Positions 8,236-57,086 of a DNA stretch of 64,000 bases are shown piece after piece (positions within the stretch are counted from its first letter, which is position 1; the number at the start of each line of letters is the position of its first letter). The notes below the pieces were generated by a model. That model was not told the DNA's origin. It saw only the letters and a program-made list of their open reading frames with translations, and made no database searches. The DNA is from Patescibacteria group bacterium. GTDB lineage: Bacteria; Patescibacteriota; Minisyncoccia; Phycocordibacterales; UBA12079. The translations under genes were made by a program, and so were the position numbers. Where the stretch lies: NCBI GenBank assembly GCA_034661035.1, contig JAYEKM010000008.1, forward strand, positions 11,677 through 75,676. Direction: 5' to 3'.

Positions 8236-9476
8236 AAATATTATCAATAGAAACTAGTTGTGACGAAACTGCTATCAGTATTTTAGAAGCTGAGGGTTCT
8301 TTCGGAGACAAAAACAACCCGCCCAAATTTAAGATTTTAGCTGATAATTTAATCTCTCAAATTGATATTCACAAAGAATACGGGGGTGTCTTCCCTGCTC
8401 TTGCAAAAAGAGAACATTCCAAAAATCTTATCCCCCTCTTAGCCAAATCACTGGAAGAAGCCTCTCTGGCTGTTCCAACTAATAATTCATTTGATAAAGG
8501 ACCAATCAAAAAAATTCTAGAAAGAGAACCCGAGCTAACTAAGTTATTTTTAGAATATATTCCAACCATTAAAATTCCTGAAATAGATGCTATCGCTGTT
8601 ACCCAAGGACCAGGACTTGAACCTGCTCTATGGGTTGGAATTAATTTTGCCAAAGCCCTATCTTTAGTTTGGAATAAACCACTTATTCCAGTTAATCATA
8701 TGGAAGGGCACCTCGTCGCTTCGCTCCTCAAGTCAAAAGTCAAAAGTCAAAAGTCAAAAGTAATTAAATTTCCTGCCATTGGACTACTAATATCTGGCGG
8801 GCATACAGAACTTATATTAATAAAAAAATGGGGTCAATATGAAAAAATTGGTCAAACCTTGGACGATGCGGTAGGTGAAGCTTTTGATAAAGTAGCTAGA
8901 ATGATGGATCTGCCCTACCCTGGCGGACCAGAAATTTCTAAACTAGCTCAAACAAATAGAAACTACACTTCCGGAGGTCCGACCTCCGGAAGTGTAGAGA
9001 TTGGACCTCCACAGGTTAAATTACCAAGGCCTATGTTAAACACCAATGATTTCAATTTTTCATTTTCTGGTTTGAAAACAGCCGTCTTATATCTAATCAA
9101 AAATCTAAAAAAAGAAAACAGTTGGGAAGAATTACCGATCGAAGTCAAACAAAAAATTGCACTTGAATTTGAAGACGCTGTGATTGAAATTTTGCTTAAA
9201 AAAACCAGGACTGCGATTGAAAAATATAATGCTAAAACATTAATCTTAGGAGGTGGTGTTGTTGCTAACTCTCAAATCCGCCAAACCTTCCAATCACTTG
9301 GAGGTCCAACCTCCAAGTTAGAAGTTTCGATGCCAGAAATAGAATTTTCAACCGATAATGCTGTGATGATTGGCATTGCTGGTTATTTTAGATATCTTCA
9401 GCAAAAAGAAAAAGGTCAGTTGCAAACTGCAACCGACCTTCTTGAACTCCCAGCTGATGGAAATTTAGAGTTCTAG
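8232..9476 (+). CDS. tsaD: tRNA N6-adenosine threonylcarbamoyltransferase TsaD (Kae1/YgjD)
   Basis: N-terminal SIETSCDETAISIL and metal-binding H..H region; carries unusual in-frame repeat insertions. Confidence 0.9.
   Translation: MKILSIETSCDETAISILEAEGSFGDKNNPPKFKILADNLISQIDIHKEYGGVFPALAKREHSKNLIPLLAKSLEEASLAVPTNNSFDKGPIKKILEREPELTKLFLEYIPTIKIPEIDAIAVTQGPGLEPALWVGINFAKALSLVWNKPLIPVNHMEGHLVASLLKSKVKSQKSKVIKFPAIGLLISGGHTELILIKKWGQYEKIGQTLDDAVGEAFDKVARMMDLPYPGGPEISKLAQTNRNYTSGGPTSGSVEIGPPQVKLPRPMLNTNDFNFSFSGLKTAVLYLIKNLKKENSWEELPIEVKQKIALEFEDAVIEILLKKTRTAIEKYNAKTLILGGGVVANSQIRQTFQSLGGPTSKLEVSMPEIEFSTDNAVMIGIAGYFRYLQQKEKGQLQTATDLLELPADGNLEF
8730..8762 (+). repeat. heptanucleotide tandem repeat (AAGTCAA)x4.7 inside tsaD
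   Basis: aagtcaa aagtcaa aagtcaa aagtcaa aagta encodes KSKVKSQKSKV. Confidence 0.9.
8963..8997. repeat. 35-bp perfect GC-rich palindrome inside the tsaD coding sequence
   Basis: CTACACTTCCGGAGGTC-C-GACCTCCGGAAGTGTAG encodes ..TSGGPTSGSV.. Confidence 0.9.
9297..9317. repeat. 21-bp perfect palindrome inside tsaD, same core as 8963
   Basis: CTTGGAGGTCCAACCTCCAAG encodes LGGPTSK; core GGAGGTCCRACCTCC. Confidence 0.9.
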
Positions 9477-16779: not shown

Positions 16780-19161
16780 TCAAATAACTATATTAAAAAT
16801 CTTGTTTTTTATATAAATACTCTTTTTAACCTCTTGACCGTCCAACCACTTTTGAACCCGTAAATCTGAGAGGACTTTGTCTTTTACCTCCTTCTCGGAA
16901 TCCTCGTCCCTAACCTCAATTTCAGCCCTTACTTTACCGTTTATTTGAACAGCTACTGTGTAAAGATCATCCTTAGCTAGCTTCTCGTCATAGGCTGGCC
17001 ACTTTTCCAGATGGATAGAAGAATCATGACCTAGGCTATTCCAAATCTCTTCTGTTATGTGAGGTGTAAATGGTGATAATATCCTCAAAAACTTTTCAAA
17101 ATCTTTTTGAGAGATCTGAGAAGTTTTTACCACCTTCATGAATTTCATCATTTCAGAAACAGCCGTATTATATTTCAATCCATTGATATCATTTCCAACT
17201 TTTCTGATAGTCTTATGTAAAACGTTCTGAACTTCTTGAGAAGTCGTTTCTTCTAATTTTTCTCTTTGATAAAAAACTTTTTCCAAAAACCGATAGACTC
17301 CAACAATATTATCTTCATTCCACATTACTTCATCCTCCAAAGGTGTTGCAAAAAGTATGTAAGTTCTAACCGAGTCTGCACCAAATCTTTCTACCATCTC
17401 ATTAGGATTCACTACATTCCCTTTTGACTTAGACATTTTCTTCCCTTCTCCATCTAGAATCATCCCTTGATGTCTTAATTTCAAAAAAGGTTCATTGAAA
17501 TCTAACAATCCAATTTTGTTCATCGCTTTAACAAAAAATCGTGAAAATAAAAGATGCATATAAGTATGTTCTGCTCCACCAATATACAAATCAACCGGCA
17601 ACCATTTTTTACGATCTTCCGAACAAAATTCTCTTTCATTATGAACATCAGGATATCTCAAAAAATACCATGACGAATCTACAAAAGTATCCATCGTATC
17701 AAACTCTGGTGTCCAACCTTTCCCAAAAATTTTTTCTGTCCTCTCTCTCAATTCTTTTGATTTTTCTAGAGGTGATTTTCCTGATGGAATAAAGTCAACG
17801 TCGGTTGGCAATAACCAAGGTAAGTGTTCTTCTGGAATTAATTTAGCTTCTCCTTCTGGTGAATAAACAATTGGAATTGGGCAACCCCAATACCTTTGAC
17901 GAGACATAGACCAATCCCTAAGGCGATAATTAGAAGTCGATTCTCCTTCTACAAATTCTGTAATTTTTTGTTTAGCTTCTTCAGAAGTCATTCCATCAAA
18001 TTGAGTAGAGTTTACCAAAACTCCATCACCAGAATAAGATTCTTCTTTTATATCTCCACCAGAGATAACTTCTCTTATATCCAAACCAAATTTGGTAGCA
18101 AATTCAAAATCTCTTTCATCATGAGCGGGGACAGCCATGATTGCCCCAGTTCCATAACCACTTAAAACATAATCAGCAATAAAAATAGGGATTTCTTCTT
18201 TATTAGCTGGATTAGTAGCAAAAATTCCCTCTAACTTTACTCCTGTTTTATCTTTAGCTTCAATTCTATCCATTTCAGTCTTACTCTGAGCTTCTTTGAT
18301 GTATTTTTCTACTTCTTCCCAATTCTCAACTTTTTCTTTTAAATCTTGAACTAATTGGTGCTCAGGAGCCAATACCATATAAGTCGCTCCGAATAATGTA
18401 TCTGGGCGAGTAGTAAATACCTCTATTTCTTTTTCAACTTTAGACTTTGGACTTTGGACTTTAAAGACTATTTTTGCCCCTTCTGACTTTCCAATCCAAT
18501 TTTTTTGATTTTTTTTCGTATGTTCTGGCCAATCAACAATATCTAAATCATTAATCAGGTCGTCAGCAAATTCTGTAATCTTAAAAAACCAACTTGGAAT
18601 TTCTTTTTGAACAATTTGAGTTCCGCAACGCTCACATTCCCCACCTACTACTTGTTCATTAGCAATACCAGTCTGGCAAGATTCACACCAATTAATTTTA
18701 GAAGTTTTTTTATAAACTAAATCATTTTCAAAAAATTTAATAAACAACCATTGTGTCCACTTATAATATTCTGGTTCATAAGTAACTACTTTTTCATCAA
18801 AATCATATCGTAAACCTAAAAGCTTCATTTGCTTTATATAATTATCAATATTTTTAGCTGTGCTGATCTCAGGGGCAATCCCTGTTTTAATTGCATAGTT
18901 TTCAGCCGGCAAACCAAAAGCATCAAAGCCTTGTGGATGCAAAACATTAAAACCTTGCATGGTCTTAAAACGGGTAAACACGTCACTGGCTGTATAAGAT
19001 TCAGTATGCCCCATATGAAGACCATCTCCTGATGGATAAGGAAACATATCCAACATATAAAATTTTTTCTTAGTATTGTCCTTATCTATATTAACAACTT
19101 GGTTGTCTTCCCAAATCTTTTGCCATTTTTTCTCTATTTTTTTATGGTTATACTTTTCCAT
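16780..19161 (-). CDS. leuS: leucyl-tRNA synthetase
   Basis: MFPYPSGDGLHMGH (HIGH), KMSKSKGNV and the LeuRS-specific GFDAFGLPAE. Confidence 0.95.
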   Translation of the reverse strand: MEKYNHKKIEKKWQKIWEDNQVVNIDKDNTKKKFYMLDMFPYPSGDGLHMGHTESYTASDVFTRFKTMQGFNVLHPQGFDAFGLPAENYAIKTGIAPEISTAKNIDNYIKQMKLLGLRYDFDEKVVTYEPEYYKWTQWLFIKFFENDLVYKKTSKINWCESCQTGIANEQVVGGECERCGTQIVQKEIPSWFFKITEFADDLINDLDIVDWPEHTKKNQKNWIGKSEGAKIVFKVQSPKSKVEKEIEVFTTRPDTLFGATYMVLAPEHQLVQDLKEKVENWEEVEKYIKEAQSKTEMDRIEAKDKTGVKLEGIFATNPANKEEIPIFIADYVLSGYGTGAIMAVPAHDERDFEFATKFGLDIREVISGGDIKEESYSGDGVLVNSTQFDGMTSEEAKQKITEFVEGESTSNYRLRDWSMSRQRYWGCPIPIVYSPEGEAKLIPEEHLPWLLPTDVDFIPSGKSPLEKSKELRERTEKIFGKGWTPEFDTMDTFVDSSWYFLRYPDVHNEREFCSEDRKKWLPVDLYIGGAEHTYMHLLFSRFFVKAMNKIGLLDFNEPFLKLRHQGMILDGEGKKMSKSKGNVVNPNEMVERFGADSVRTYILFATPLEDEVMWNEDNIVGVYRFLEKVFYQREKLEETTSQEVQNVLHKTIRKVGNDINGLKYNTAVSEMMKFMKVVKTSQISQKDFEKFLRILSPFTPHITEEIWNSLGHDSSIHLEKWPAYDEKLAKDDLYTVAVQINGKVRAEIEVRDEDSEKEVKDKVLSDLRVQKWLDGQEVKKSIYIKNKIFNIVI
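18438..18465 (-). repeat. heptanucleotide tandem repeat (AAAGTCC/AAAGTCT) inside leuS
   Basis: + strand ctttaga ctttgga ctttgga ctttaaa; on the coding strand it encodes FKVQSPKSKVE. Same unit family as the tsaD repeat. Confidence 0.85.
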
Positions 19162-22940: not shown

Positions 22941-22968
22941 TTTCATCTAAATTAGATTATGTTACAAT

Positions 22969-22992: not shown

Positions 22993-23159
22993 ATTTTACA
23001 GAAAAATGTTTTATGTATATGTGTTACAATCAAATGAAGACAAAAGGTTTCGTGCAGATTATACAAAAAATTTAAAGTTAAGATTTGACCGTCATAATAA
23101 AAAAATTTTATTTAACAATACAAAAACATACTATGGAAAAACATTTATTAGAAAAAGGG

Positions 23160-23184
23160 TCAAATCTTATTTAATAGGGTAAAT
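23160..23184 (+). promoter_or_regulatory. conserved 5' UTR/promoter module directly abutting the PAP2 start codon
   Basis: TCAAATCTTATTTAATAGGGTAAAT-ATG; 24/25 identical to the module at 27228 on the opposite strand. Confidence 0.5.
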
Positions 23185-26279: not shown

Positions 26280-26388
26280 TTGTAAAAATTTGATTCATTT
26301 GAGTTTTAAAAACTCAAATGATATTTAATATGGGTTATTCCAAAAAACTACTAAGCTCCTATTTATAATCTATAATTAAATTTAAGTT

Positions 26389-26431
26389 AAAAGTCTATAA
26401 AGGCCAACGTCTATAAAGTCTTTATAAAACC
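26389..26431. repeat. IVS-like repeat arm (left), overlaps the 3' end of the four-helix-bundle gene
   Basis: aaaaGTCTATAAAGgccaacGTCTATAAAGTCtttataaaacc; supplies codons IKTL and the TAG stop. Confidence 0.6.
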
Positions 26432-26755
26432 TGATAATAATTTCGATATTTCAATCGATAAACTAAAACATTTTTCAAACTGTTCTTTAGATAAATACTT
26501 TAGCTCTAAAGCTAAATAAAGCATCGATCTTACCTCTCCACAGGAACCTTTTGCTATAAATAAAAAATGCTTAAACTCTCTATCCCCCTTCCTCTCAAAT
26601 CCTTCTGCAATATTGTTCATTACTGAAACAGAAGCTCTCTGAATCTGGTCTCTAAAGCTATAGTCCTTAGAATCTGAAAAACTTTTGTAGATACTGATCG
26701 TTAGGGTTCTTGCTTTCTGCCATGATATCATATCTTCAAATTTTTCAATTTTCAT
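26411..26755 (-). CDS. four-helix-bundle protein (23S rRNA intervening-sequence protein family)
   Basis: MKIEKFEDMISWQKARTL..NNIAEGFERKGDREFKHFLFIAKGSCGEVRSMLYLALEL pattern; start trimmed to Met26 of the track ORF. Confidence 0.75.
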   Translation of the reverse strand: MKIEKFEDMISWQKARTLTISIYKSFSDSKDYSFRDQIQRASVSVMNNIAEGFERKGDREFKHFLFIAKGSCGEVRSMLYLALELKYLSKEQFEKCFSLSIEISKLLSGFIKTL

Positions 26756-26800
26756 ACTTTTTACTTTATAGACTTTATGAACTTTCGACTGTAACATCCA
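26756..26800. repeat. IVS-like repeat arm (right), inverted relative to 26389
   Basis: tactttttACTTTATAGACTTTATGAACTTTCGACtgtaac. Confidence 0.6.
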
Positions 26801-27227
26801 TTTTATCAAGTTTACCTTTTTCTGCAACAAAAGACTTATCCTTCCTCAATTTTAAAAGAATGAAATAAGCCAGCAACCAACCCAACATATCCATTAAAAT
26901 ATCCAGACTAGTGTCTAAGTTAAAGTTAGATTGATAAATTGAAGCCTTTGCTAAATATTCAAAAATTTCCCACAAAATACCTACTGTTATTACAAAAAAT
27001 AAGGATGTATAGAATATAGAAAGTTTTTCTTTAATTCTTCTAAAATATTTCGATAGAAAAAAAATATAATAAGAAAGCAAAGCCACCCAAAAACCACCAA
27101 GAAAGTGCATAATTATGTCAAACCACCAAAATTTCCAATATAGGAAAAAGTGGCTAGCAAGAATATTTAAAATAAAGATTATATAAATAAAAACAACCAG
27201 AAAAATTGAAAAAGTTTTTTTGCTCAT
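26775..27227 (-). CDS. hypothetical small membrane protein (about 150 aa, 4 TM)
   Basis: Start trimmed to MSKKTFSIFLVV; the conserved 5' module sits directly upstream. Confidence 0.5.
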   Translation of the reverse strand: MSKKTFSIFLVVFIYIIFILNILASHFFLYWKFWWFDIIMHFLGGFWVALLSYYIFFLSKYFRRIKEKLSIFYTSLFFVITVGILWEIFEYLAKASIYQSNFNLDTSLDILMDMLGWLLAYFILLKLRKDKSFVAEKGKLDKMDVTVESS

Positions 27228-27252
27228 ATTTACCCTGTTAAATAAGATTTGA
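27228..27252 (-). promoter_or_regulatory. conserved 5' UTR/promoter module abutting the start codon of the membrane gene
   Basis: Minus strand reads TCAAATCTTATTTAACAGGGTAAAT-ATG. Confidence 0.5.
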
Positions 27253-27433
27253 TTCTTTTTTTTAATAAGTACCTCTTCATAATGTGTTTTTAAATTACTG
27301 AACAAACTTTCCTTTTACCGCAACCATCAAATCTTAACTTTAAATTTTTTATATAATATAATTTATATAAAACTTTTTATCCTTAGCTGATTATAGCATA
27401 TATACATAGAACATTTTCCGCAAGATTTAAAGT

Positions 27434-27450
27434 TATTTAATAGGGTGAAT
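27434..27450 (+). promoter_or_regulatory. copy of the TTATTTAATAGGGTGAAT motif (plus orientation)
   Basis: About 205 bp from the inverted copy at 27228; second divergent pair. Confidence 0.4.
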
Positions 27451-27472
27451 TATATCACACGGTCAAATAGAA

Positions 27473-27503
27473 ATAAAAAAAAGACCTTTCCGAGGAAAGG
27501 TCC
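27473..27503 (-). terminator. hairpin with T-run on the minus strand (terminator of an unannotated minus-strand transcript?)
   Basis: aaaaaaaa-GACCTTTCC-GAG-GGAAAGGTC, with a GC-rich stretch gagtgggagtctgcggtggcgtggccg to its right. Confidence 0.4.
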
Positions 27504-27714: not shown

Positions 27715-28542
27715 ATGAACAACCTAAGAACAACAGTAATAAAACCTAAAAAGACTATCAGTTGGGATGACCTTAGAGAAATTTGGAAATATAAAGAATT
27801 ACTTTATTTTTTCACTTGGCGAGACATTAAGGTGAGATATAAGCAAACTGCCATCGGTATTCTCTGGGCCCTTTTCCAACCTTTTATGACAATGGTAGTT
27901 TTTAGTATTTTCTTTGGTGGATTAGCTAAAATGCCTTCCGATGGTATTCCTTATCCAATTTTTGTTTACACCGGACTATTGCTTTGGCAATTCTTTTCAG
28001 GAGCTTTATCAGACACGAGTAATTGTTTAATCAACAATAAAAGTGTCATCACAAAGGTTTACTTCCCACGTCTGCTACTACCGATTTCATCAACCATTAC
28101 AAAATTTGTTGATTTTGGGATAGCTTCTACAATTTTGGTAGGAATGATGATTTACTATCAATACATACCAAACTTAATAGGATTATTAATTTTACCTTTA
28201 CTTCTTCTTATTACTTTTATGGCGTCAGTGGGAGGAGGTTTATTTCTAGCCTCCATTAATGTTAAATATCGTGATGTCCGTTACGCTCTACCTTTTTTCA
28301 TATCAATGATGATGTTCGTCACTCCTGTAATTTATCCAGCTAGTATTGCCGGTAAATACTCTTGGATTTTAGCGCTAAACCCCATGACAGGTGTAATTAA
28401 AGCAGCTAGGGCAGCTATTTTAGGCAATGCCCCCATTAACTGGACCTTATTACTCATCTCTGGAGTAACTTGTCTCATAATACTAATTATTGGTTTTATT
28501 TTCTTCAAAAAAACCGAGAGATACTTCGCAGATATAGTATAA
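27715..28542 (+). CDS. ABC-2 type polysaccharide/teichoic-acid exporter permease (Wzm/TagG-like)
   Basis: 6-TM ABC-2 permease; the N-terminal WRDIKVRYKQTAIGILWALFQP motif is typical of Wzm/KpsM/TagG. Confidence 0.75.
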   Translation: MNNLRTTVIKPKKTISWDDLREIWKYKELLYFFTWRDIKVRYKQTAIGILWALFQPFMTMVVFSIFFGGLAKMPSDGIPYPIFVYTGLLLWQFFSGALSDTSNCLINNKSVITKVYFPRLLLPISSTITKFVDFGIASTILVGMMIYYQYIPNLIGLLILPLLLLITFMASVGGGLFLASINVKYRDVRYALPFFISMMMFVTPVIYPASIAGKYSWILALNPMTGVIKAARAAILGNAPINWTLLLISGVTCLIILIIGFIFFKKTERYFADIV

Positions 28543-28544
28543 AA

Positions 28545-28660
28545 GAGTAAAAAGTCTATAAAGTCCTTAAAGTAGAAAGTAAAAAAAATGGGAAATTGAC
28601 TTCGCCAATTTCCAATTTTTTTACTTTATAGACTTTCGACTTTATAAACTTTCGGCTCTT
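28545..28660. repeat. ORF-less IVS-like palindromic element with a central bidirectional terminator
   Basis: Arms aaaaGTCTATAAAGTCCTTAAAGTAGAAAGT / ACTTTATAGACTTTCGACTTTATAAACTTTCGG; centre A8-GGAAATTG-ACTTCGC-CAATTTCC-T7. Confidence 0.65.
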
Positions 28661-31600
28661 CTTTATAAGCTCTTAAATATAAAACCGGTATCATTACTAG
28701 TGTAACCACAGTCGCAAAAGACAAACCAAAGATAATTGAAAAAGCTAGAGGACCCCAAACAGAGGAAGCAAGAATTAGAGGAGTCATTCCTATAACTGTG
28801 GTTAAAGTGGTAAGGAGCACTGGCCTCAAACGAAGAACTGAAGATTCTATAACGATATCCTTAAGAGGAAGTTCTCTTTTCTCTTTTCTCATGGAGTTCA
28901 TTGTGTCAATTAAGATAATTGCATTATTGACAACAATTCCTGCCAGAGCTATCACACCGATAAAAGAAGGGAAAGAAAAAGTGCTCCCTATTATAGTTAA
29001 TCCAACCAAAACACCAATCAAAGACATCAAGACACCCGCCACTATAAAGAAAGTTTGTCTGAAAGAGTTAAATTGTAATATCAAAACAACAATAACCAAG
29101 ATTAGCCCAGCCACCAAAGCCATCAGCATTTCAGTAAAGGTCTTAGCAATATCTTCATTTTCACCTCCTGTTTTTAACAAAACACCCTCAGGAAGGAAAG
29201 TCTCGTCATCTTTTATAATGGATTGGAATTCTTTATTAATTTCAACAGCATTAGCTCCCTCTTTTAATTGAGATGAAGCGGTAGCAATCCGATCCCCTTC
29301 TTCATGGTTGATAGAAGCATTACTTTTTTGAATTGTCACATCCATCAACGAGCCTAAAAGAATTACTCCATTAGGGGTATTAATTTCCATCTGCCTAATA
29401 GAATCAACTGTAGTCCTTGAAGTTAAATTTGGATCAACATTATCTATATTAAGATTTAGTTTGACCAAAACATCAATATCTTCACCACCTGCTTTTATGG
29501 TGGTTGCGTCTACCCCATAAATAGCTGTCCTTAAAATTGAAGCAACTATTACTGGCGATAAATTACTTTCTGATAATTTAGACCTATCTATTTTCAAAAC
29601 AAATTCTGTAACATTATTTTTCATACTATTGGTTACATCGATTGTTCCAGGAATATTTTTCAAAATATCTTCGGCTTTAACAACAACTCTTTCCAAATCA
29701 TCCAAGTCAGCCCCGAAAAATTTTATTAAAACAGGAGCTCCTGAAGGAGGACCCGAACCAGGCTGAGCAACAGTCACTTTGGCTATTCTAATATCTGCTA
29801 ATTCAAACCTTAAATCTTCTATCAATTCTAGACTGTTTTTTTCTCTATCCTTCTTCAATAGAACAGTGATATTCCCTAACTTTTCGCCAGAACTACTACC
29901 AGAATTACTAAAAGCATTTGAGGAACCAACTGACGTAGCAAATGATTCAATATAAGATTGGTTATATAAAATTTCTTCCACTGCTCTGACAGCCAAATCA
30001 GTTTCTTCTAGAACCGTTCCCTGCAACATTTCTACATCAACATAAATAAACTTAGAATCTTCTGGGGGGAACAAGGAGGTTTTAAGCAAGCCAGTAATTG
30101 GTAAAGAGAAAGAAAGAATTAAAGCAATCACCATCGACCACAAAAATCTTTTTTGAAACTTCTTACTACCTAAAATATATTCTAATTTCTTTTTATACCA
30201 ACCTCTTAATAATTCATTATATTTCTTTTGTTTCTGAAATAATTTACTATTACTATTTCCGTTCCTTTTTAAGACTACTAAAGCAATTAAAGGAACAATA
30301 CCTAAAGCTACAAAAAGTGAAGCAAATAAAACAAAAATTAATGTATAGGGAATTCCCTTAACAAATTCGCCCATAATGCCAGACAAAAAGAATAAAGGAA
30401 AAAAGGCTGCCACTGTAGTCAACGTTCCAGAAGTTAAGGGTATATAAAATTCTTTAATAGTTTTAATAGCTGATTCGTTACCACTCAGTCCTTGTTTAAT
30501 TTTGACGTGCATAGCTTCAGTTACCACAATAGCGGAATCCACCAAAATTCCTACTGCCAAAATCAGAGCAAATAAAGAAATAAAATTAAGAGTGTTACCT
30601 GTAAAATACAAACCTGTAAAAGAAACCAAGAACGAAAGAGGGACTGCTAAACCAGCAATTAAAGATTCTCTCCAACCAATAGCAAAAAATAAGATTAGTG
30701 TAACTAAGAAAACAGTAGCTAATCCCGACATAGATAAATTTCTTAAGTCATCGTTTAAATACTCGGCCATATCGATTGAAATCAATACCTCAGCCCCTTC
30801 CAAAATACCACCTTCCTGCAGTCTAGCTAATTCTTTCTTAACACTTTTTACAATAGTACTGATATCACTCCCCCTCTTCTTAAAGATAGACAATGAAACA
30901 GCTTGCTGAGAAGGTTGCCCATTGACACTAACTCTAGAAAATGAAGATTTTTGACTAACTCCGTCAGAGATAAAAGCCAGATCTCTAACATAAATAATCT
31001 CCCCCCCGATACTTGAAATAGGGATATCTTTAATCTCATTTGAATCAACAAGATCCCCTTTAAATTTTAAAGGATACTTGATTCCTTGTATCTCTATGTC
31101 TCCTATTGGTAAAGAAGAATTAGCTTTAGAGATTGCATTAACAATATCTGTAATTCCTAAACCAAATTTAGAAAGAGCTGATTGGTTTACAACCACCTGA
31201 ACTTCCCTGTCTGAAATTCCACTAATACCTATTTTAGAAACACCATTAACAGACTTTAATTCATCTTTGACGTCTTCGGATAATTTAATAAATTCAGTTA
31301 CCGGTAAATCACTGGAAATAGATAGCATCAGAATAGGTTGATCGGCAAAATTTATATCTGAAATAACTGGGTCTTTAGCTTCACTAGGTAATTCTGATTT
31401 AACTTTATCAACTTCATCTTTTACTTTTTGAATAGATTCCTGGATATCAGCGTCAGCATCAAATTCAACTACTACTGAAGAAAACCCCTCTCCTGAGGTA
31501 GAGGTAATCTTATTTAATGTATCCAAATTGTTAATTAATTGATCTTCTATTTTATCGGTTATCAATCTTTCTGTGTCTAAAGCTGAGGACCCTGGTAAAA

Positions 31601-31751
31601 ATGTAGAAACAATAGCTAAAGGAATTTGTATTTCAGGAGAAGATTCTTTTGTGATATTAACTAAAGAAAAAATCCCTGCCATAATTAAGGAAGAAACTAA
31701 CAATATAGTAAAACTTTTTTTCTTTATAAAAAATATCCAGAAATTTTGCAT
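28626..31751 (-). CDS. RND efflux transporter permease (AcrB/HAE-like)
   Basis: 1041 aa, 12-TM RND architecture, AcrB-like N-terminal pattern. The last codons KVYKVESL-stop lie in the repeat arm. Confidence 0.8.
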   Translation of the reverse strand: MQNFWIFFIKKKSFTILLVSSLIMAGIFSLVNITKESSPEIQIPLAIVSTFLPGSSALDTERLITDKIEDQLINNLDTLNKITSTSGEGFSSVVVEFDADADIQESIQKVKDEVDKVKSELPSEAKDPVISDINFADQPILMLSISSDLPVTEFIKLSEDVKDELKSVNGVSKIGISGISDREVQVVVNQSALSKFGLGITDIVNAISKANSSLPIGDIEIQGIKYPLKFKGDLVDSNEIKDIPISSIGGEIIYVRDLAFISDGVSQKSSFSRVSVNGQPSQQAVSLSIFKKRGSDISTIVKSVKKELARLQEGGILEGAEVLISIDMAEYLNDDLRNLSMSGLATVFLVTLILFFAIGWRESLIAGLAVPLSFLVSFTGLYFTGNTLNFISLFALILAVGILVDSAIVVTEAMHVKIKQGLSGNESAIKTIKEFYIPLTSGTLTTVAAFFPLFFLSGIMGEFVKGIPYTLIFVLFASLFVALGIVPLIALVVLKRNGNSNSKLFQKQKKYNELLRGWYKKKLEYILGSKKFQKRFLWSMVIALILSFSLPITGLLKTSLFPPEDSKFIYVDVEMLQGTVLEETDLAVRAVEEILYNQSYIESFATSVGSSNAFSNSGSSSGEKLGNITVLLKKDREKNSLELIEDLRFELADIRIAKVTVAQPGSGPPSGAPVLIKFFGADLDDLERVVVKAEDILKNIPGTIDVTNSMKNNVTEFVLKIDRSKLSESNLSPVIVASILRTAIYGVDATTIKAGGEDIDVLVKLNLNIDNVDPNLTSRTTVDSIRQMEINTPNGVILLGSLMDVTIQKSNASINHEEGDRIATASSQLKEGANAVEINKEFQSIIKDDETFLPEGVLLKTGGENEDIAKTFTEMLMALVAGLILVIVVLILQFNSFRQTFFIVAGVLMSLIGVLVGLTIIGSTFSFPSFIGVIALAGIVVNNAIILIDTMNSMRKEKRELPLKDIVIESSVLRLRPVLLTTLTTVIGMTPLILASSVWGPLAFSIIFGLSFATVVTLVMIPVLYLRAYKEEPKVYKVESL

Positions 31752-31860
31752 AATAATTGTTTAGTCTAAAGTCCTTAATATCCATAAAGCCGAAAGTGAA
31801 AAATTTGCTTTGCAAATTTTTCTTACCTTATGGGCTTTTGACTTCATAGACTTTCGACTA
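31752..31860. repeat. second ORF-less IVS-like palindromic element between the RND and MFP genes
   Basis: Arms tAGTCTAAAGTCCTTAATATCCATAAAGCCGAAAGTG / GACTTCATAGACTTTCGACT; centre AAATTTGC-TTT-GCAAATTT. Confidence 0.6.
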
Positions 31861-33460
31861 TTTGTCCTTCTTTCAATCCTCTCGCATCTATAACAATTTC
31901 CATATCAGCTGTGACACCTTCTTTTATAATTATTTTTTCTCCTAAGATAGGACCTAAAATTACAGGATGAGAAATCAATTTATTTCCTTCACCCACTGTA
32001 AAAACGGTTGTGTCAGCAGATCCAATCTTTAGAGCTGAAATCGGAACAGAAAGTTCTGTTAATTCTTCTTCAACTTCTTGAAAAATTCTTTCAACCAACA
32101 AAGAAACTGACTGTCCATTAGTCAAAACCATATCTGAATCTTTTAAGGTAACCTCCACTTTTATCTTTTTTGTTTTGTTGTCTATGGCAGGAGCGATATT
32201 TTTAACTTCTCCTTGCCATTTAGAACCAACTAAAACCTTAGAACCAACTTCAACATCATCTCTATCTTCTTCTGTAATATAGGTAACTACCTCTAAAGAT
32301 TTATTATTGGCAATACTTACTACAGGAGTAAAAGCTGAAACAAAATCACCCTTTTCTAAATTAAGGATATTAATAGTTCCACTAATAGAGGCTCTAATAA
32401 TTGTTTTCTCTAAATTAGCGTAAGCTGATTGCAGACCTGCTTCAGCTTGTTTTAATTGAGCTTCTGCTGAGATAACGTCTTCTGATCTCCCCCCTGTTTG
32501 AGCCTGTTCATAATTCAACTCAGCAATTTCAAAGTTTGAGTAAGCCCCATTCAAACTATTCTTAGCTGTAGACAAAGCTGTTGCAGATGTGTTGATCACA
32601 GTTCTGGTTGTACTTATATTAGTTTTCCATGTAGTGATAGTTGTTTCTGATAAGTTTGAAGTCGGAGTTAGGATATTTACAGCCAAAGCTAATTTATCAA
32701 GAAAAACTCTAATGGAATTAATATTTGACTTTCTTTTATCCAATTCCCCTATTAAATCATCTTCTACATCAAATGTAGTTAGTGTATCTGACCACTCCTC
32801 TAACATTTCTTCTAAAAGCAATCTTCTCCACTCAAGATCAATTTCTAATTGAGAATCAACCACAGGGAAAATTACTTGTGGATCATCTCCTCGGGCGTCT
32901 CTAAACATAGCGTCCATTTTATTTCTAATAGAGTCATCAGCTTTAGCAAAAGAATCGTTCAAAGTGTTAACAACTGATATTTTGGTTTCAGTTAAAGTAT
33001 TTTGAACATTATCTAGAGTGGTTTTAAGAATAGAAGTCTGTTCATCTCTACCTCCTTTTTTTATCTTATCTAAACCTGCTTGAGCAACTTCAACACTGGC
33101 CTCTGCTTGAGTCACAGCTGATTTTTGTGTCCAATTGTCTAATTCACCAATAATTTGATTAGACCAAACAGTATCGCCTAATTTTTTGTAAACCCCAATT
33201 ACTTCTCCTGATATTTGAGAATAAATATTAGCAGAAGATTGTGACTGAACTTTTCCTAATAAAGGCAATGGATCTTTATTCAAAGAAAGATTCCTAACTG
33301 ACATAGTAGCAACTTGTCTAACATCAGAAGAATCAATATCTTGATCCCCATTTTCCTGAACAACCAATCTCTGATAAAAGATAATTGTTAAAATAGCTAA
33401 AATAGTGAAAACTATAATAACTTTATTACGACCTAACCCTTTATTTCTTAAATCTAACAT
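31844..33460 (-). CDS. RND efflux periplasmic adaptor (membrane fusion protein, HlyD/AcrA family)
   Basis: N-terminal TM, long coiled-coil, C-terminal beta-barrel-like region. Start trimmed to ATG 33460; the longer ORF would translate the GC palindrome. Confidence 0.65.
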   Translation of the reverse strand: MLDLRNKGLGRNKVIIVFTILAILTIIFYQRLVVQENGDQDIDSSDVRQVATMSVRNLSLNKDPLPLLGKVQSQSSANIYSQISGEVIGVYKKLGDTVWSNQIIGELDNWTQKSAVTQAEASVEVAQAGLDKIKKGGRDEQTSILKTTLDNVQNTLTETKISVVNTLNDSFAKADDSIRNKMDAMFRDARGDDPQVIFPVVDSQLEIDLEWRRLLLEEMLEEWSDTLTTFDVEDDLIGELDKRKSNINSIRVFLDKLALAVNILTPTSNLSETTITTWKTNISTTRTVINTSATALSTAKNSLNGAYSNFEIAELNYEQAQTGGRSEDVISAEAQLKQAEAGLQSAYANLEKTIIRASISGTINILNLEKGDFVSAFTPVVSIANNKSLEVVTYITEEDRDDVEVGSKVLVGSKWQGEVKNIAPAIDNKTKKIKVEVTLKDSDMVLTNGQSVSLLVERIFQEVEEELTELSVPISALKIGSADTTVFTVGEGNKLISHPVILGPILGEKIIIKEGVTADMEIVIDARGLKEGQIVESL

Positions 33461-33475
33461 ATTTTTCTTGTTCGC

Positions 33476-33495
33476 CCTGCCTGCCGGCAGGCAGG
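33476..33495. promoter_or_regulatory. 20-bp perfect GC-rich palindrome 16 nt upstream of the MFP start (candidate operator or 5' hairpin)
   Basis: CCTGCCTGCCGGCAGGCAGG with outer TTCGCCC/GGGCGAA; about 80% GC in a roughly 30% GC genome. Confidence 0.45.
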
Positions 33496-33608
33496 CTTGG
33501 GCGAAATTATATCTACCTTGCAAAAATTACTGGGGTATTATACCAAAAATAAGTGAAAAAGATAGATTTTCTCCTAAAAAATGGTAAAATAACACTTACA
33601 TAAACAAT

Positions 33609-34898
33609 ATGTCTGATCCAAGAGAACCGATGATTTCGGTTAAAAACATCTCTAAAAAGTATAAAATAACCCATCAACAGGGTGGTTATATTGCTATGCG
33701 AGATGTCATGGCAAATATAGCTAAAAAACCCTTTTCTTTCTTAAAAAGAAAGGTTAATAAGATTACAGGAAGAACAACCAGAGAAGACTTTTGGGCCTTA
33801 GAAGACATTAATTTTGATATTTTTAAAGGGGAAGCTGTAGGGATTATTGGTGCAAACGGAGCAGGCAAATCTACCCTTTTAAAAATCTTAACGGGTATTA
33901 CCCCACCCACCACAGGAGAAATAAAGATGTACGGAAAAGTTGCCTCTCTCCTAGAAGTTGGAACGGGATTCCATGGAGAGCTTACAGGAAGAGAAAATAT
34001 TTTTTTAAACGGGGCCATCCTTGGAATGACCAAGGAAGAGATAGCTGAAAAATTTGATGCTATTGTAAGATTTTCTGGTGTTAAAAAATTCATTGATACA
34101 CCTGTTAAAAGATATTCGTCAGGAATGTTAGTCCGTCTAGGTTTCTCGGTCGCAGCTCATATGGAGCCAGATATTCTTTTAGTTGATGAAGTCCTCGCTG
34201 TCGGTGATGCGGAGTTTCAAAAGAAATGCCTTGGTAAGATGGACGAGGTCACCAAAGAAGGAGGTCGTACTATTCTCTTTGTCAGCCATAATATGGCAGC
34301 TATCCAAAATCTCTGCAAAAGGTGTATTCTAATTGAAGAAGGTAAAATTAAAATGATTGGTAAGACAAAAGATGTTATTGATAGATATTTAAAATCTGAA
34401 ATACAAGACAATCCTCAAATTAAGTTTAAACCTGATTTAAATAAAAAAGCTCAAATCTTAGGAATAAAAATGAGGAACGAGAAGAACGAAATAATCAATC
34501 AAATTAATTATCAGGAACATTTTGAAATTGAATTACTAACGGATATCAGAGTTAAAAATAAAACTTATTATATTATAATCATAATTTACAACTCTGTTGG
34601 AAATATAATATTAACAACCACTGATAGAGATTTAGAACAATCTTTTATCAGTCAAATAGACAAAGTTAATAAAGAAAATAAACATTTAATCAGATTTCCA
34701 AATAAATTACTAAAACCAGGACAATATTATATCTCAATAAATTTAACTAGTGATAATCAAGGCGCTATAGACAAGCATAGTTCAGTGCTAAGTTTTAATA
34801 TTATAGACACCATATCTAAAAGATCTAAAGATAATGGTTACCGAGATACTGCTATTGTTGCTCCAGAAATAAACTGGATTTCCAAGGTAGAAAAATAA
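33609..34898 (+). CDS. polysaccharide/teichoic-acid export ABC ATPase (Wzt/TagH/KpsT-like) with a C-terminal substrate-binding-type domain
   Basis: Walker A GANGAGKST, signature YSSGMLVRLGF, Walker B ILLVDE; about 180-aa C-terminal extension. Confidence 0.8.
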   Translation: MSDPREPMISVKNISKKYKITHQQGGYIAMRDVMANIAKKPFSFLKRKVNKITGRTTREDFWALEDINFDIFKGEAVGIIGANGAGKSTLLKILTGITPPTTGEIKMYGKVASLLEVGTGFHGELTGRENIFLNGAILGMTKEEIAEKFDAIVRFSGVKKFIDTPVKRYSSGMLVRLGFSVAAHMEPDILLVDEVLAVGDAEFQKKCLGKMDEVTKEGGRTILFVSHNMAAIQNLCKRCILIEEGKIKMIGKTKDVIDRYLKSEIQDNPQIKFKPDLNKKAQILGIKMRNEKNEIINQINYQEHFEIELLTDIRVKNKTYYIIIIIYNSVGNIILTTTDRDLEQSFISQIDKVNKENKHLIRFPNKLLKPGQYYISINLTSDNQGAIDKHSSVLSFNIIDTISKRSKDNGYRDTAIVAPEINWISKVEK

Positions 34899-34902
34899 AA
34901 TT

Positions 34903-35640
34903 ATGAAAAAATTAGCAATTATCCCCGCTAGAGGCGGGTCAAAAAGATTGAAGAACAAAAACAGACTCCTATTAAGTGGGAAACCTTTAGTTGTTTATAC
35001 AATAGAGTCAGCAATTAAAAGTAAACTATTTGATAAAATTATTCTTTCAACTGATGATGAAAAAATCGCTAAAATAGGTAAAGATTTAGGGATATCAATA
35101 TATTATCGACCCAAAAAATATGCATCTGACACCGCCACAGTAATTCAAGCTCTCGTTGAATTAATGGAAACTTTTGAAAAAAATGGTGAAAAATATGATG
35201 TTGTTTGTCAAATGCTCCCAACTTGCCCTTTTAGAGATTTTGAAGACATTAAAAAAGGAATACAATTATTGGATAAAAAAACAGATTCTGTCATAAGTAT
35301 TTCCACCTATAATTTCCCTTTACCAAAATCACTAAGCAAAAAAGGAGACTTTATAAAACCATATTGGCCTAATTCTCCATTTTTAACAGGAAAAACAAGA
35401 ACACAGGATCAACAAATCTTTTATCATGATAATGGAGCCTTCTATATATCTTGGTGGGAATCAATAAAAAAATATAAAACTTTCTATAAAGGAGAAATAA
35501 AAGGGTATGAGATAAATCATCTAAAAACTATTGATATAGATAATAAACTTGATTTTGAAATGGCAGAAATAATATTAACACATGTTAAAGACAATAAAAA
35601 TCAATCGGAAATTAAAAAACTTTTGTCTCATTTAATTTAA
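34903..35640 (+). CDS. CMP-nonulosonic acid synthetase family cytidylyltransferase (NeuA/PseF/LegF-like)
   Basis: N-terminal AIIPARGGSKRLKNKN. Confidence 0.75.
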   Translation: MKKLAIIPARGGSKRLKNKNRLLLSGKPLVVYTIESAIKSKLFDKIILSTDDEKIAKIGKDLGISIYYRPKKYASDTATVIQALVELMETFEKNGEKYDVVCQMLPTCPFRDFEDIKKGIQLLDKKTDSVISISTYNFPLPKSLSKKGDFIKPYWPNSPFLTGKTRTQDQQIFYHDNGAFYISWWESIKKYKTFYKGEIKGYEINHLKTIDIDNKLDFEMAEIILTHVKDNKNQSEIKKLLSHLI

Positions 35641-55900: not shown

Positions 55901-57086
55901 ATTTTTTAAGAGCCTCTTCTACAGAATTTGCTACAATAAGCCCCTCCCCTTTTTCAAACTCTTTCTTACTTTCCATTAATTCTGAATGGAAAATATCTTC
56001 TATCAAAAGTTTTTCTAAATTATCTAAAGTATTTTGAATGGAAAATTGTTTTGATTTTTCGTAAGCGTTTTGGATAATCCCTTGTCTAAAAAGATCATTC
56101 TTTAAGACTTTAAAAATAGCTTTTTTCAAAGCTTCTTTGTCATTAGGCTCAACCAAAATCCCTTCTACATTATTTTCAATCAATTCAGGTAAAGAACAGA
56201 TATTAGTAGTAATCACGGGCAAACCTAAAGTCATTGCTTCCACAGTATCAAAAGAAAAACTTTCCCAATTAGTATTGAAAACAAAAATATCAGCCAATTG
56301 TTTTTGTTTTAATAATTCTTCTCTAGTTAGTTGCCCTGTCAAAATAACTTTTCCCTGCAAACCTAACCTTTCGATTGTTTCTTCTAATTCTTCTTTTTGA
56401 GGGCCACCTCCAACAATAACTAATTTAACTTCTGGAATTTCTTGCAAAATATTCGGCATCGTTTCAATCAACACTTTAAAGCCTTTCCAAGGTACAAGTC
56501 TCCCCACAGATAACAACACATTACTTTCGACTTTATGGACTTTATGAACTTTTAACTCGTTTATTTCTATCCCGTTATAAATTACCTTAATTTTTTCAGG
56601 AGCAATCCCCCAATTCACAATAACTTGTTTAAAGTAATGACTAGGAACAATAATTTTATCAGCCTGTTTAACTACACAAAATTGAATTTTCTTAAAAAAC
56701 CGAACTTTTAAGCCATAGTTATTTCTCGTAGAGAAAGTATCTAAATCATCTTTTACACCAAACCTCTGAACCCCTTGCTCCCATGCATAATCACCAGCAA
56801 TCCTAATGAAAAACTTTTTCCTTAAAAATTTGTTAGCTAACATAGTCGGCAAACCAACACTCACTGGATCTTGAGCATAAATAACATCAACCCCCTTAGC
56901 TCTTTTAAGAATTTTGAAAAAATAAATAATATGACGAATAATTTTTGGTAAATTCCTAACTTCACCAAAAGAAAGGACCACCACTTCAATCCCCCTTTTT
57001 GGTAATTCATCAAAAAGAAGCTTTGAATAAGTAGCCGGTCCACCAATATCCGGCGGGTATATTCCTGTTGTAATTAAAATTCTCAT
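55890..57086 (-). CDS. family 4 glycosyltransferase
   Basis: FNTNWESFSFDTVEAMTLGLPVITT; AAGGAG SD. Confidence 0.75.
   Translation of the reverse strand: MRILITTGIYPPDIGGPATYSKLLFDELPKRGIEVVVLSFGEVRNLPKIIRHIIYFFKILKRAKGVDVIYAQDPVSVGLPTMLANKFLRKKFFIRIAGDYAWEQGVQRFGVKDDLDTFSTRNNYGLKVRFFKKIQFCVVKQADKIIVPSHYFKQVIVNWGIAPEKIKVIYNGIEINELKVHKVHKVESNVLLSVGRLVPWKGFKVLIETMPNILQEIPEVKLVIVGGGPQKEELEETIERLGLQGKVILTGQLTREELLKQKQLADIFVFNTNWESFSFDTVEAMTLGLPVITTNICSLPELIENNVEGILVEPNDKEALKKAIFKVLKNDLFRQGIIQNAYEKSKQFSIQNTLDNLEKLLIEDIFHSELMESKKEFEKGEGLIVANSVEEALKKYEK

What the first reader, a model, noticed from the sequence alone, without database searches (positions are those of the whole stretch)
28618..31860. 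The repeat arm donates the last codons and the stop codon to three different genes (VESL-stop, VESL-stop, KTL-stop)
The RND gene ends ..GTC GAA AGT CTA TAA (KVYKVESL-stop) inside the arm at 28626-28660. The MFP gene ends ..GTC GAA AGT CTA TGA (IVESL-stop) inside the arm at 31844-31860. The 4HB gene ends ..AAG ACT TTA TAG inside its left arm. Identical C-terminal peptides on unrelated proteins, encoded by a repeat, are a hallmark of element insertion into gene 3' ends, which here creates new C-termini.
Basis: seen in the sequence. Interest (0 to 1): 0.55.

Follow-up and report, generated by a model that had tools for sequence, protein, structure and literature searches.

The report
Hexamer-array palindromes overlapping gene stop codons
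Several genes in this candidate-phyla-radiation bacterium end inside copies of a palindromic DNA repeat built from AAAGTC hexamers, an apparently undescribed element family resembling the intervening sequences of ribosomal RNA genes, and the shared VES-x-stop protein tails are a side effect of that overlap.

Summary
RND ends KVYKVESL*, MFP ends IVESL*, and the four-helix-bundle (4HB) gene ends KTL*, all inside repeat arms. A fourth gene (DUF2238-like, 26775-27305) ends VESS* in an arm.

The arms are tandem AAAGTC hexamers with 1-3 nt spacers. They occur as inverted pairs that fold into long hairpins.

Syntenic orthologues show that the host-gene tails occur only where the arm DNA is present, and each junction varies between relatives.

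It fails for the 4HB gene. SGFIKTL* is the conserved native C-terminus of a distinct 4HB clade (Pfam 23S_rRNA_IVP), which is the element's own cargo.

The same arms occur in at least 120 genome stretches across Patescibacteria and Bacteroidota. They appear as mini palindromes, as flanks of this 4HB gene, in frame inside genes, and inside 16S and 23S rRNA genes.

I read it as an rRNA-IVS-like palindromic element family. Mixed unit lengths put a stop in every frame, so ORFs that run into an arm end quickly.

Repeats donating C-termini are known from Coxiella MITEs. This element family appears undescribed. How it spreads is unknown.

The parts
26385..26421 (.). Element A, arm on the 3' side of the 4HB cargo gene (AGTTAAAAGTCTATAAAGGCCAACGTCTATAAAGTC on the + strand). 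It overlaps the last codons K-T-L and the stop of the 4HB gene (26411-26422).
26411..26755 (-). Cargo gene: 114-aa four-helix-bundle protein (Pfam 23S_rRNA_IVP / S23p) of the MKIEKFEDI...SGFIKTL clade.
   Evidence: E=2.6e-35; 7409 homologues with E<=1e-20; the top 120 are 70-82% identical; alignment
26756..26790 (.). Element A, arm on the 5' side of the 4HB gene (ACTTTTTACTTTATAGACTTTATGAACTTTCGACT). It holds the last codons V-E-S-S and the TAA stop (26775-26777) of the DUF2238-like gene.
   Evidence: (family D1)
26775..27305 (-). DUF2238-like host gene (listed ORF; the likely ATG is further in, near 27225). Its C-terminus ...DVTVESS* is arm-encoded.
   Evidence: (PF09997 on the same ORF in L001)
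28546..28580 (.). Element B, arm next to the stop of the ABC2 gene (AGAGTAAAAAGTCTATAAAGTCCTTAAAGTAGAAAGT).
   Evidence: (I3)
28581..28622 (.). Element B core: an A-run, the hairpin 28591-28613 and a T-run. It scores as an intrinsic-terminator-like site on both strands, between the convergent ABC2 and RND genes.
   Evidence: fold
28623..28665 (.). Element B, arm that encodes the RND tail PKVYKVESL and the TAA stop (28626-28628). The palindrome extends to about 28665.
   Evidence: (I3: 57-nt arms, 74% complementary)
28626..31751 (-). RND (AcrB-family) permease. The last ~12 residues (KEEPKVYKVESL) are lineage-specific and arm-encoded.
31763..31797 (.). Element C, arm on the RND-start side (AGTCTAAAGTCCTTAATATCCATAAAGCCGAAAGT; decayed units).
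31798..31822 (.). Element C central hairpin GAAAAATTTGC-TTT-GCAAATTTTTC. It is homologous to the hairpins at the same junction in L002 and L125.
31823..31859 (.). Element C, arm that encodes the MFP tail (I)VESL and the TGA stop (31844-31846).
31844..33460 (-). MFP (HlyD-family) adaptor gene. The listed ORF runs to 33523, but the probable ATG start is at 33460.
56522..56557 (-). Solo arm read in frame inside a GT4 glycosyltransferase (ELKVHKVHKVESN).
   Evidence: (D1)
8733..8763 (+). Period-7 AAAGTC array read in frame in TsaD (KSKVKSQKSKV). It is an 8-residue insertion relative to solved TsaD 8iey.
18437..18466 (-). Period-7 AAAGTC array read in frame in LeuRS (FKVQSPKSKVEK). The segment is 4 residues longer than in T. 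thermophilus LeuRS.

Best explanation
The arms belong to a family of imperfect palindromic elements. Each arm is a tandem array of the hexamer AAAGTC with 1-3 nt spacers, so unit lengths are 7-9 nt. The outer end reads (T)AGTCGAAAGTC. The opposite arm is the inverted copy.

The elements come in two sizes.
- Miniature form: the arms enclose only a short loop or a small hairpin.

Once transcribed, an element folds into one long hairpin. This is the architecture of bacterial rRNA intervening sequences, and relatives of these elements sit inside 16S and 23S rRNA genes.

In this compact genome the elements lie directly against gene 3' ends. There they act as terminator or intercistronic hairpins. 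This role is inferred, although element B contains a bidirectional terminator-like core.

A 9-nt unit carries a stop in one of the three frames (AGT CYA TAA). The 7- and 8-nt units shift the frame. Any ORF whose own stop has been lost, or replaced at the junction, therefore terminates within one to three units, usually as ...V-E-S-(L/P/S)-stop. The shared tails are a by-product of DNA overlap and are not a selected peptide.

What is shown: the anatomy, the gain/loss pattern between orthologous junctions, the cargo association, and the cross-phylum distribution.

What is inferred: the RNA-level role, RNase III processing, and the way copies spread. For spread I favour recombination and horizontal transfer with fast unit slippage over classical transposition.
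For: Anatomy and folding
- Arm structure and unit periodicity.
- Element B folds at -48.1 kcal/mol (z -8.8) and element C at -36.1 kcal/mol (z -7.7).
- The core of B is terminator-like on both strands.

Orthologous junctions
- The RND|ABC2 junction has four states. The window has a mini element. L002 has a plain terminator. L003 has arms around a PemK gene, with the RND TAG overlapping the first unit. L004 has no spacer at all.
- The MFP|RND element is present in the window, L002, L125 and L126, and absent in L003 and L127.
- The 4HB element between DUF2238 and SLOG is present in the window, L002 and L126, and absent in L003 and L004.
- Host tails track arm presence in every case.

Generality
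- 55 of 61 Patescibacteria loci and 28 of 36 Bacteroidota loci extend to 4 or more units. 24 and 10 of them respectively have inverted partners within 120 nt.
- Among 204 arrays, 28 hold the stop of an ORF of at least 80 codons (VESL*, VKSL*, VESP*, IKSS* and similar). 20 are read through in frame.

Cargo
- Spacer length between arm pairs is bimodal. 38 of 55 pairs have spacers under 60 nt. Five of the six pairs with 360-450 nt spacers enclose the IKTL-clade 4HB gene.
- All five loci chosen by protein alone also carry arms on both sides.
- Three distant-type 4HB genes in the loci have no arms.

rRNA link
- The 16S gene of L017 contains two mini elements.
- The 23S gene of L081 has one at the edge of a 748-nt insertion.
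- The Coxiella IVS has an S23p ORF, inverted repeats, tandem heptamers of variable number and RNase III excision (PMC4990558).

Fast unit turnover
- L151 and L152 encode an identical 4HB protein but have different arrays.

Precedent
- Coxiella QMITE1 and QMITE2 overlap many gene 3' ends, and one supplies 33 C-terminal residues of EnhC (PMC5896051).
Against: - No transcript or processing data exist for these uncultured organisms.
- Over 22 mini elements with a known transcribed strand, the sense strand does not fold better than the antisense strand (11 versus 10). RNA-level selection is therefore not demonstrated, and a DNA-level role is equally open.
- No mobilising enzyme, no target-site duplication and no near-identical copies were found, so mobility rests only on presence/absence between relatives.
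- Each identical 4HB protein maps to a single genomic place across samples.
- Why the hexamer sequence is conserved across phyla is unexplained by a purely structural role.
- The in-frame GT4 copy is a same-length segment shared patchily by orthologues, so it is not a clean insertion.
Confidence: 0.7

Rival explanations
1. The AAAGTC arrays are binding-site arrays for the co-transferred 4HB protein, on RNA or DNA. The mini elements at gene ends would then be functional sites of a 4HB-dependent system for regulation, processing or propagation. They would not be passive hairpins.
For: - The hexamer itself is conserved across phyla, not just the pairing.
- The IKTL-clade 4HB gene is 63-82% identical between very distant hosts and is flanked by the arrays in all sampled loci.
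- The repeats are regularly spaced. S23p from Xanthomonas is a pentameric ring (cited in PMC4990558).
- From my own knowledge, the homologous Avd of diversity-generating retroelements is also a pentamer and binds nucleic acid.
Against: - No binding data exist.
- Most arrays (about 110 of the 120 pattern-selected 8-kb loci) have no 4HB gene nearby, although action in trans is possible.
- In Coxiella, S23p appears not to be expressed and is decaying.
- A different cargo, PemK, also occurs next to arms.
Confidence: 0.25
2. The mini elements are ordinary MITEs: deletion derivatives of an insertion sequence, moved in trans by a transposase encoded elsewhere in the genome.
For: - Inverted terminal arms, small size, and presence/absence between relatives.
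- Location at gene ends, as for the Coxiella QMITEs.
- One element truncates another gene: a distant-type 4HB is cut to 67 aa in L151.
Against: - Copies within one genome are not near-identical. They differ in unit number, order and central sequence.
- No consistent target-site duplication was seen on inspection of the ends.
- The only recurrent cargo is a 114-aa helical bundle, not a transposase.
- No transposase lies among the genes next to the elements that were scanned.
Confidence: 0.12
3. V-E-S-L is a protein-level C-terminal signal (sorting, degradation or partner binding) selected independently in several proteins.
For: The same four residues end two transporter components in the window. 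Similar tails recur in other genomes.
Against: - Orthologues without the arm DNA lack the tail.
- The DNA identity continues beyond the stop codon.
- The fourth residue and the stop vary with the unit variant: L, P or S, and in some arrays the stop follows VES directly.
- The carriers are functionally unrelated membrane and cytosolic proteins.
Confidence: 0.03
4. There is no element family. The arrays are independent minisatellite expansions next to ordinary AT-rich terminators.
For: Plain (CTATAAAGT)n runs occur in AT-rich giant-virus bins. Unit number changes quickly. My composition-based estimate is a few tens of chance matches to the search pattern in AT-rich genomes.
Against: - The same outer end, AGTCGAAAGTC, recurs.
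- The arrays pair in inverted orientation.
- The same 4HB cargo clade occurs in Patescibacteria, Bacteroidota and a code-25 lineage.
- 100 of the 120 loci extend beyond the three units the search required.
Confidence: 0.05

Closest known systems
Bacterial rRNA intervening sequences carrying an S23p / 23S_rRNA_IVP ORF (Coxiella burnetii helix-45 IVS; Leptospira IVS)
   Same: - Inverted flanks form a long stem around a small four-helix-bundle ORF of the same Pfam family.
- Short tandem repeats of variable number lie next to the ORF (GACAGAT heptamers in Coxiella).
- Distribution is sporadic and suggests horizontal transfer.
- Relatives of the window elements lie inside 16S and 23S rRNA genes.
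   Different: - The window copies are not in rRNA. They sit at protein-gene ends and, as solo arms, inside coding sequences.
- The repeat unit is AAAGTC rather than GACAGAT.
- Miniature ORF-less copies outnumber ORF-bearing ones.
- RNase III excision is untested here.
Coxiella burnetii QMITE1 / QMITE2
   Same: Palindromic repeats overlap the 3' ends of many unrelated genes and supply terminal codons and stops. In strain Dugway, 33 C-terminal residues of EnhC come from QMITE2 (PMC5896051).
   Different: QMITEs have defined terminal repeats, direct repeats and similar copies. They are confined to one genus. They are not built from hexamer arrays and have no 4HB cargo.
Rickettsia palindromic elements (RPE) (from my own knowledge)
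   Same: Palindromic repeats tolerated in frame inside essential protein genes. Here that applies to TsaD, LeuRS and GT4.
   Different: RPEs insert as whole palindromes of about 100-150 bp. Here only single arms are read in frame. The sequences are unrelated.
REP / BIME extragenic palindromes (from my own knowledge; see also PMC3733652, listed)
   Same: A short conserved motif in inverted pairs at gene 3' ends, variable in number, acting as mRNA 3' hairpins.
   Different: REPs are GC-rich 20-40 bp units with GTAG or CGTC heads and are linked to RAYT transposases. The arms here are AT-rich hexamer arrays with an AGTC head. No RAYT was looked for genome-wide.

Membership tests
rRNA intervening sequence (IVS) with S23p ORF | Lies inside an rRNA gene, at a helix tip (23S helices 9, 25 or 45) | tested here: not met
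   Rfam finds no rRNA in the window. The window copies lie between or inside protein genes. Related copies do lie inside a 16S gene (L017) and at an insertion in a 23S gene (L081).
rRNA intervening sequence (IVS) with S23p ORF | Inverted flanks that pair into a long stem enclosing the insert | tested here: met
   Arms 26385-26421 and 26756-90 flank the ORF. Mini elements B and C fold as single hairpins with z -8.8 and -7.7.
rRNA intervening sequence (IVS) with S23p ORF | ORF of the 23S_rRNA_IVP / S23p four-helix-bundle family in the loop | tested here: met
   PF05635, E=2.6e-35, covering residues 7-109 of 114. Met for element A only; B and C have no ORF.
rRNA intervening sequence (IVS) with S23p ORF | Excised from the transcript by RNase III without re-ligation | not testable with these tools
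   This needs transcript end mapping or in vitro cleavage.
MITE (miniature inverted-repeat transposable element) | Terminal inverted repeats and small size (about 50-500 bp) | tested here: met
   Element B is about 120 bp and C about 100 bp, with imperfect inverted arms.
MITE (miniature inverted-repeat transposable element) | Target-site duplication flanking each copy | tested here: inconclusive
   Element C is bracketed by TA...TA. Elements A and B, and their orthologous copies, are not (sequences). No consistent duplication was found.
MITE (miniature inverted-repeat transposable element) | Many near-identical copies derived from a transposase-encoding parent | tested here: not met
   Copies in the window share only the hexamer motif and differ in unit order, number and core. 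The recurrent cargo is a 4HB gene, not a transposase. No whole-genome search was possible.
REP / BIME | GC-rich 20-40 bp palindromic unit with a GTAG or CGTC head, associated with a RAYT gene | tested here: not met
   The arms are AT-rich arrays with head AGTCGAAAGTC. RAYT association was not tested.
Intrinsic (rho-independent) terminator | G+C-containing hairpin followed by a T-run | tested here: met
   Core of element B: 28591-28613 with CATTTTTTTT on the minus strand and AATTTTTTTA on the plus strand. Element C's AT-rich hairpin did not pass the scan.
Integron gene cassette / attC | Cassette ORF followed by an attC site with RYYYAAC / GTTRRRY boxes, near an IntI integrase | tested here: not met
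   The arms flank the cargo on both sides and lack the boxes. No integrase lies among the neighbouring genes scanned.

The most novel reading that the evidence does not exclude
The AAAGTC-array palindromes and the IKTL-clade four-helix-bundle gene form one cross-phylum genetic system. In it the protein recognises the hexamer arrays, on RNA or DNA. rRNA intervening sequences would then be one landing site among several for a general mobile or regulatory element. The element also populates gene ends and coding loops in Patescibacteria and Bacteroidota, and reshapes protein C-termini as it goes.
Probability: 0.3. Interest if true: 0.8.

Novelty: new variant of a known kind. Interest (0 to 1): 0.55.

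Why it matters
Repeats that donate stop codons and short tails to genes are already known, so the tails themselves are ordinary.

The wider context matters more. [quoted passage not shown] The origin of rRNA intervening sequences is also unresolved.

This analysis finds one clade of that protein flanked by the same hexamer arrays in all sampled loci. The arrays occur at protein-gene ends, inside coding sequences and inside rRNA genes, in two distant phyla.

That gives a concrete and testable pairing of protein and nucleic-acid motif. It also supports the old proposal that intervening sequences are mobile elements.

There is a practical point for annotation of candidate-phyla genomes. The arrays create artificial N-terminal extensions (the 128-aa NCBI model of the window's 4HB gene) and lineage-specific C-termini.

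Tried and rejected
1. Literature search for the 15-mers (AAAGTCTATAAAGTC and variants) found no paper. Searches on the protein family found only statements that its function is unknown.

2. Rfam has no family for the arms. At E<=1 only chance microRNA-like matches appeared.

3. Strand bias of folding as a test for RNA-level selection. The window elements fold 5-7 kcal/mol better on the gene-sense strand. Across 22 mini elements with a known transcribed strand there is no bias (11 versus 10). I dropped this as evidence.

4. Phage vector idea. The viral-contig scan gave only 10 hits, mostly plain 9-mer minisatellites in giant-virus bins.

5. Recent-transposition idea. Identical 4HB proteins listed on about 21-25 contigs each map to one genomic place.

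6. Target-site duplication. Inspection of the ends gave nothing consistent.

7. tblastn with the window 4HB alone underestimated the cargo association. An iterated profile and the spacer-length analysis were needed.

8. GT4 solo arm as a clean insertion. The orthologue alignment shows a same-length segment, with the KVHKVHKVES-like motif in 9 of 15 orthologues in a patchy pattern. Its origin is unresolved.

9. Integron attC and REP/RAYT readings were rejected on anatomy (see the membership table).
Full report
**Source and genes**

The window is a 31% G+C stretch of a Patescibacteria (candidate phyla radiation) genome. Its 4HB and GT4 proteins are on record from an NCBI MAG contig of 95,110 bp labelled "Patescibacteria group bacterium".

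The genes in the finding are:
- an AcrB-family RND permease (28626-31751, minus strand);
- a HlyD-family membrane-fusion protein (31844 to about 33460, minus strand);
- a 114-aa four-helix-bundle protein of Pfam family 23S_rRNA_IVP (26411-26755, minus strand).

**Observation**

All three ORFs end inside copies of one repeat, exactly as described.
- RND ends ...PKVYKVESL-TAA.
- MFP ends ...GQIVESL-TGA.
- 4HB ends ...GFIKTL-TAG.

A fourth case was missed. The DUF2238-like ORF 26775-27305 ends ...DVTVESS-TAA in the arm on the other side of the 4HB gene.

The repeat is far beyond chance.

**Anatomy**

The arms are not a fixed sequence. They are tandem arrays of the hexamer AAAGTC separated by 1-3 nt (G; A; YAT; CTT and others), giving units of 7-9 nt. 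The outer end reads (T)AGTYRAAAGT.

Two arms in inverted orientation make an element.
- Element A (26385-26790) encloses the 4HB gene.
- Element B (28546-28665) lies between the convergent ABC2 and RND genes. It encloses an A-run, hairpin and T-run that score as an intrinsic terminator on both strands.
- Element C (31763-31859) lies between MFP and RND. It encloses an AT-rich hairpin.

B and C fold as single long hairpins: -48.1 kcal/mol (z -8.8) and -36.1 kcal/mol (z -7.7).

Single arms also occur in frame inside three genes.
- GT4: 56522-56557, KVHKVHKVES.
- TsaD: 8733-8763, an 8-residue insertion relative to PDB 8iey.
- LeuRS: 18437-18466.

**Why the tails are alike**

In a 9-nt unit, one frame reads K-V-H/Y, one reads K-S-I, and one reads S-L/P-stop. 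Units of 7 or 8 nt shift the frame. A mixed array is therefore closed in all three frames within a few units. The closing step is nearly always GTC GAA AGT CYA TAA, which reads V-E-S-L/P-stop.

Read from the inside, the arm gives ACT TTA TAG, which reads T-L-stop.

Proteins 67-94% identical to the RND protein were found, and six syntenic loci were fetched.

RND:
- Every orthologue ends ...LY(L/V)R(Y/F)(T/I)K* or ...AYSK*, except two. One is the window protein, with +KEEPKVYKVESL. The other is L004, where the intergenic spacer is gone and the ORF runs into the antisense of ABC2.
- The closest relative (L002, 94% identical) has a plain terminator and no arm at this junction.
- In L003 (85%) the TAG stop overlaps the first unit of an arm (AAA TAG TCA AAA GTC...). 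There the arms bracket a PemK toxin gene.
- The window tail is best read as loss of that stop followed by read-through into the arm.

MFP:
- It ends VESL* in the window, L002 and L125, and VESLKFIKSIK* in L126. All four carry the arm and a homologous central hairpin.
- It ends VVSIIE* in L003 and NLNQN* in L127, which lack the arm.

DUF2238:
- It ends VESS*, VESP* or VES* where the 4HB element follows (window, L002, L126).
- It ends IIIE* or SSKY* at the empty sites (L003, L004). There the downstream intergenic sequence aligns directly with what follows the element in the window.

So the tails are confined to copies with the repeat and begin at its boundary. The "would refute" condition is not met.

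**The 4HB gene is different**

The 4HB gene is the element's cargo, not a victim.

Among arm pairs in the fetched loci, the spacer length is bimodal.
- 38 of 55 pairs have spacers under 60 nt.
- Five of the six pairs with 360-450 nt spacers enclose a 4HB gene of one clade: MKIEKFEDI...NNIAEGFER...AKGSCGEVRSMLYLA...SGFIKTL.
- The sixth pair rests on a two-unit partner and holds no ORF.

The hosts include Zambryskibacteria, Berkelbacteria, a Rikenellaceae bin (63% identical to the window protein) and a lineage that reads TGA as glycine.

The clade is very large: 7409 clusters at E<=1e-20 among the candidates scored. The best 120 are 70-82% identical, and most are exactly 114 aa.

In an alignment of 32 members, the C-terminus SGFIKTL is nearly invariant, with K126 and L128 invariant. 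KTL is kept where the codons do not form a unit (L033: AAA ACA TTA AAC TAA).

Five loci chosen through the protein alone all have arrays on both sides. Three distant-type 4HB genes have none.

**Wider distribution**

- Patescibacteria: 61 loci from many classes. 55 extend to 4 or more units, and 24 have an inverted partner within 120 nt.
- Bacteroidota: 36 loci, including the cultured isolates Odoribacter sp. AF15-53, Butyricimonas muris, Flavobacterium sp. Root186 and Perlabentimonas gracilis. 28 extend to 4 or more units, 18 to 6 or more, and 10 are paired.
- Gammaproteobacteria-labelled bins: 12 loci.

My composition-based estimate of chance matches is a few tens. Chance would not give the extensions, the pairing or the shared outer end.

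Across 204 arrays, 28 contain the stop of an ORF of at least 80 codons (tails VESL*, VKSL*, VESP*, IKSS*...KSL*). 20 are read through in frame.

**Link to rRNA intervening sequences**

- In L017 a complete 16S rRNA gene (1864-3705) contains two mini elements (3136-3209 and 3530-3601). Further copies lie upstream of it and in the spacer before a tRNA.
- In L081 a 23S gene carries a mini element at the 5' edge of a 748-nt insertion that also holds a LAGLIDADG ORF.
- The Coxiella IVS has the same layout: an S23p ORF, inverted flanks, tandem heptamers whose number differs between strains, and excision by RNase III. That paper restates the older proposal that IVSs are mobile elements whose ORF serves mobility (PMC4990558).
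- A survey of CPR rRNA insertions found 23S_rRNA_IVP ORFs and many short uncharacterised inserts, but does not describe these arrays.
- I found no paper containing the repeat sequence and no Rfam family.

**Mechanism: shown versus inferred**

Shown:
- the element anatomy and its strong folding potential;
- turnover at orthologous junctions;
- rapid change of unit number (L151 and L152 encode an identical 4HB protein but have different arrays);
- one insertion that truncates another gene, which then ends ...KAES* in the arm;
- the exclusive association with one 4HB clade.

Inferred:
- the hairpins act on transcripts, as terminator in B and as intercistronic hairpin in C;
- they are RNase III substrates like IVSs.

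Unknown:
- How copies spread. Copies within a genome are not near-identical, no target duplication is consistent, no transposase is nearby, and identical 4HB proteins map to one place each. I therefore favour spread by horizontal transfer and recombination, with fast slippage inside arrays, over classical transposition.
- Whether the role is at RNA or DNA level. The absence of a sense-strand folding bias leaves this open.
- Why the hexamer itself is conserved across phyla. The structural explanation does not account for this. It is the main argument for the rival view that the 4HB protein recognises the arrays.

**Verdict**

- C-terminal donation by repeats is known (Coxiella QMITEs).
- The element family, its cargo and its reach appear to be undescribed.

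Noticed in passing
window 23058-23088, 27327-27357, 54067-54104 (wider: 22935-23210 versus 27202-27484): A ~30-nt motif, TACAAAAAATTTAAAGTTAAGATTTGA, lies about 100 nt upstream of three genes (PAP2 at 23185 on the plus strand; the DUF2238-like gene on the minus strand; the ORF ending at 53900 on the minus strand). Two copies are 97% complementary. It may be a shared promoter or leader element.
   Followed up: no
window 33473-33502; L127 about 2800-3100 and 8230-8700: A second, GC-rich palindromic repeat (CCTGCCTGCCGGCAGGCAGG) sits just upstream of the MFP start. It is abundant in the intergenic regions of relative L127. It is read in frame as LAGRQ / PAGRQ in two GT4 orthologues (P0247, P0267).
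   Followed up: partly
L003 5385-5768; L133 2733-3167: A PemK-family toxin gene recurs as a second kind of cargo next to AAAGTC arms. In L133 the stop of the upstream ABC2 gene overlaps the arm (TGAGTCAAAAGTC).
   Followed up: partly
L065 3880-4260: The 4HB cargo gene has in-frame TGA at conserved glycine positions. The host therefore uses genetic code 25, so the element also occurs in the Gracilibacteria/Absconditabacteria-type lineage.
   Followed up: no
L151 415-700 versus L152 (same place): Two samples encode an identical 4HB protein but differ in the number and order of hexamer units upstream. The element there truncates a second, distant-type 4HB gene to 67 aa ending ...KAES*.
   Followed up: partly
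L133, L154, L155, L151; window 27715-35640 and 55890-58881: 4HB-bearing elements lie repeatedly between sugar epimerase, UDP-glucose dehydrogenase and ABC2 (Wzm-like) genes. The window copies also border an ABC2/Wzt exporter and GT4 genes. This suggests an association with variable surface-glycan loci.
   Followed up: no
window 55373-55900 and 57153-57683 (minus strand): Two paralogous ORFs of 175-176 aa each overlap the 3' end of a GT4 gene. Their 5' ends are 80% identical at the DNA level (repeat D6).
   Followed up: no
window 56522-56557 and GT4 orthologues P0242-P0267: The in-frame KVHKVHKVES-like segment of GT4 occurs in 9 of 15 aligned sequences, in a patchy pattern. The others carry an unrelated segment, of the same length in four of them. 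It is unclear whether this is old array DNA, repeated acquisition or peptide-level conservation.
   Followed up: partly
L004 3203-3262: In this relative the RND|ABC2 intergenic spacer is completely lost. The RND ORF runs about 20 codons into the antisense of the convergent ABC2 gene.
   Followed up: no
window 26756-26830 (P0121): The NCBI model of the window's 4HB protein is 128 aa, because the open KV frame of the upstream arm was annotated as an N-terminal extension (MLQSKVHKVYKVKS-MKIEKF...). P0128 shows the same artefact.
   Followed up: partly
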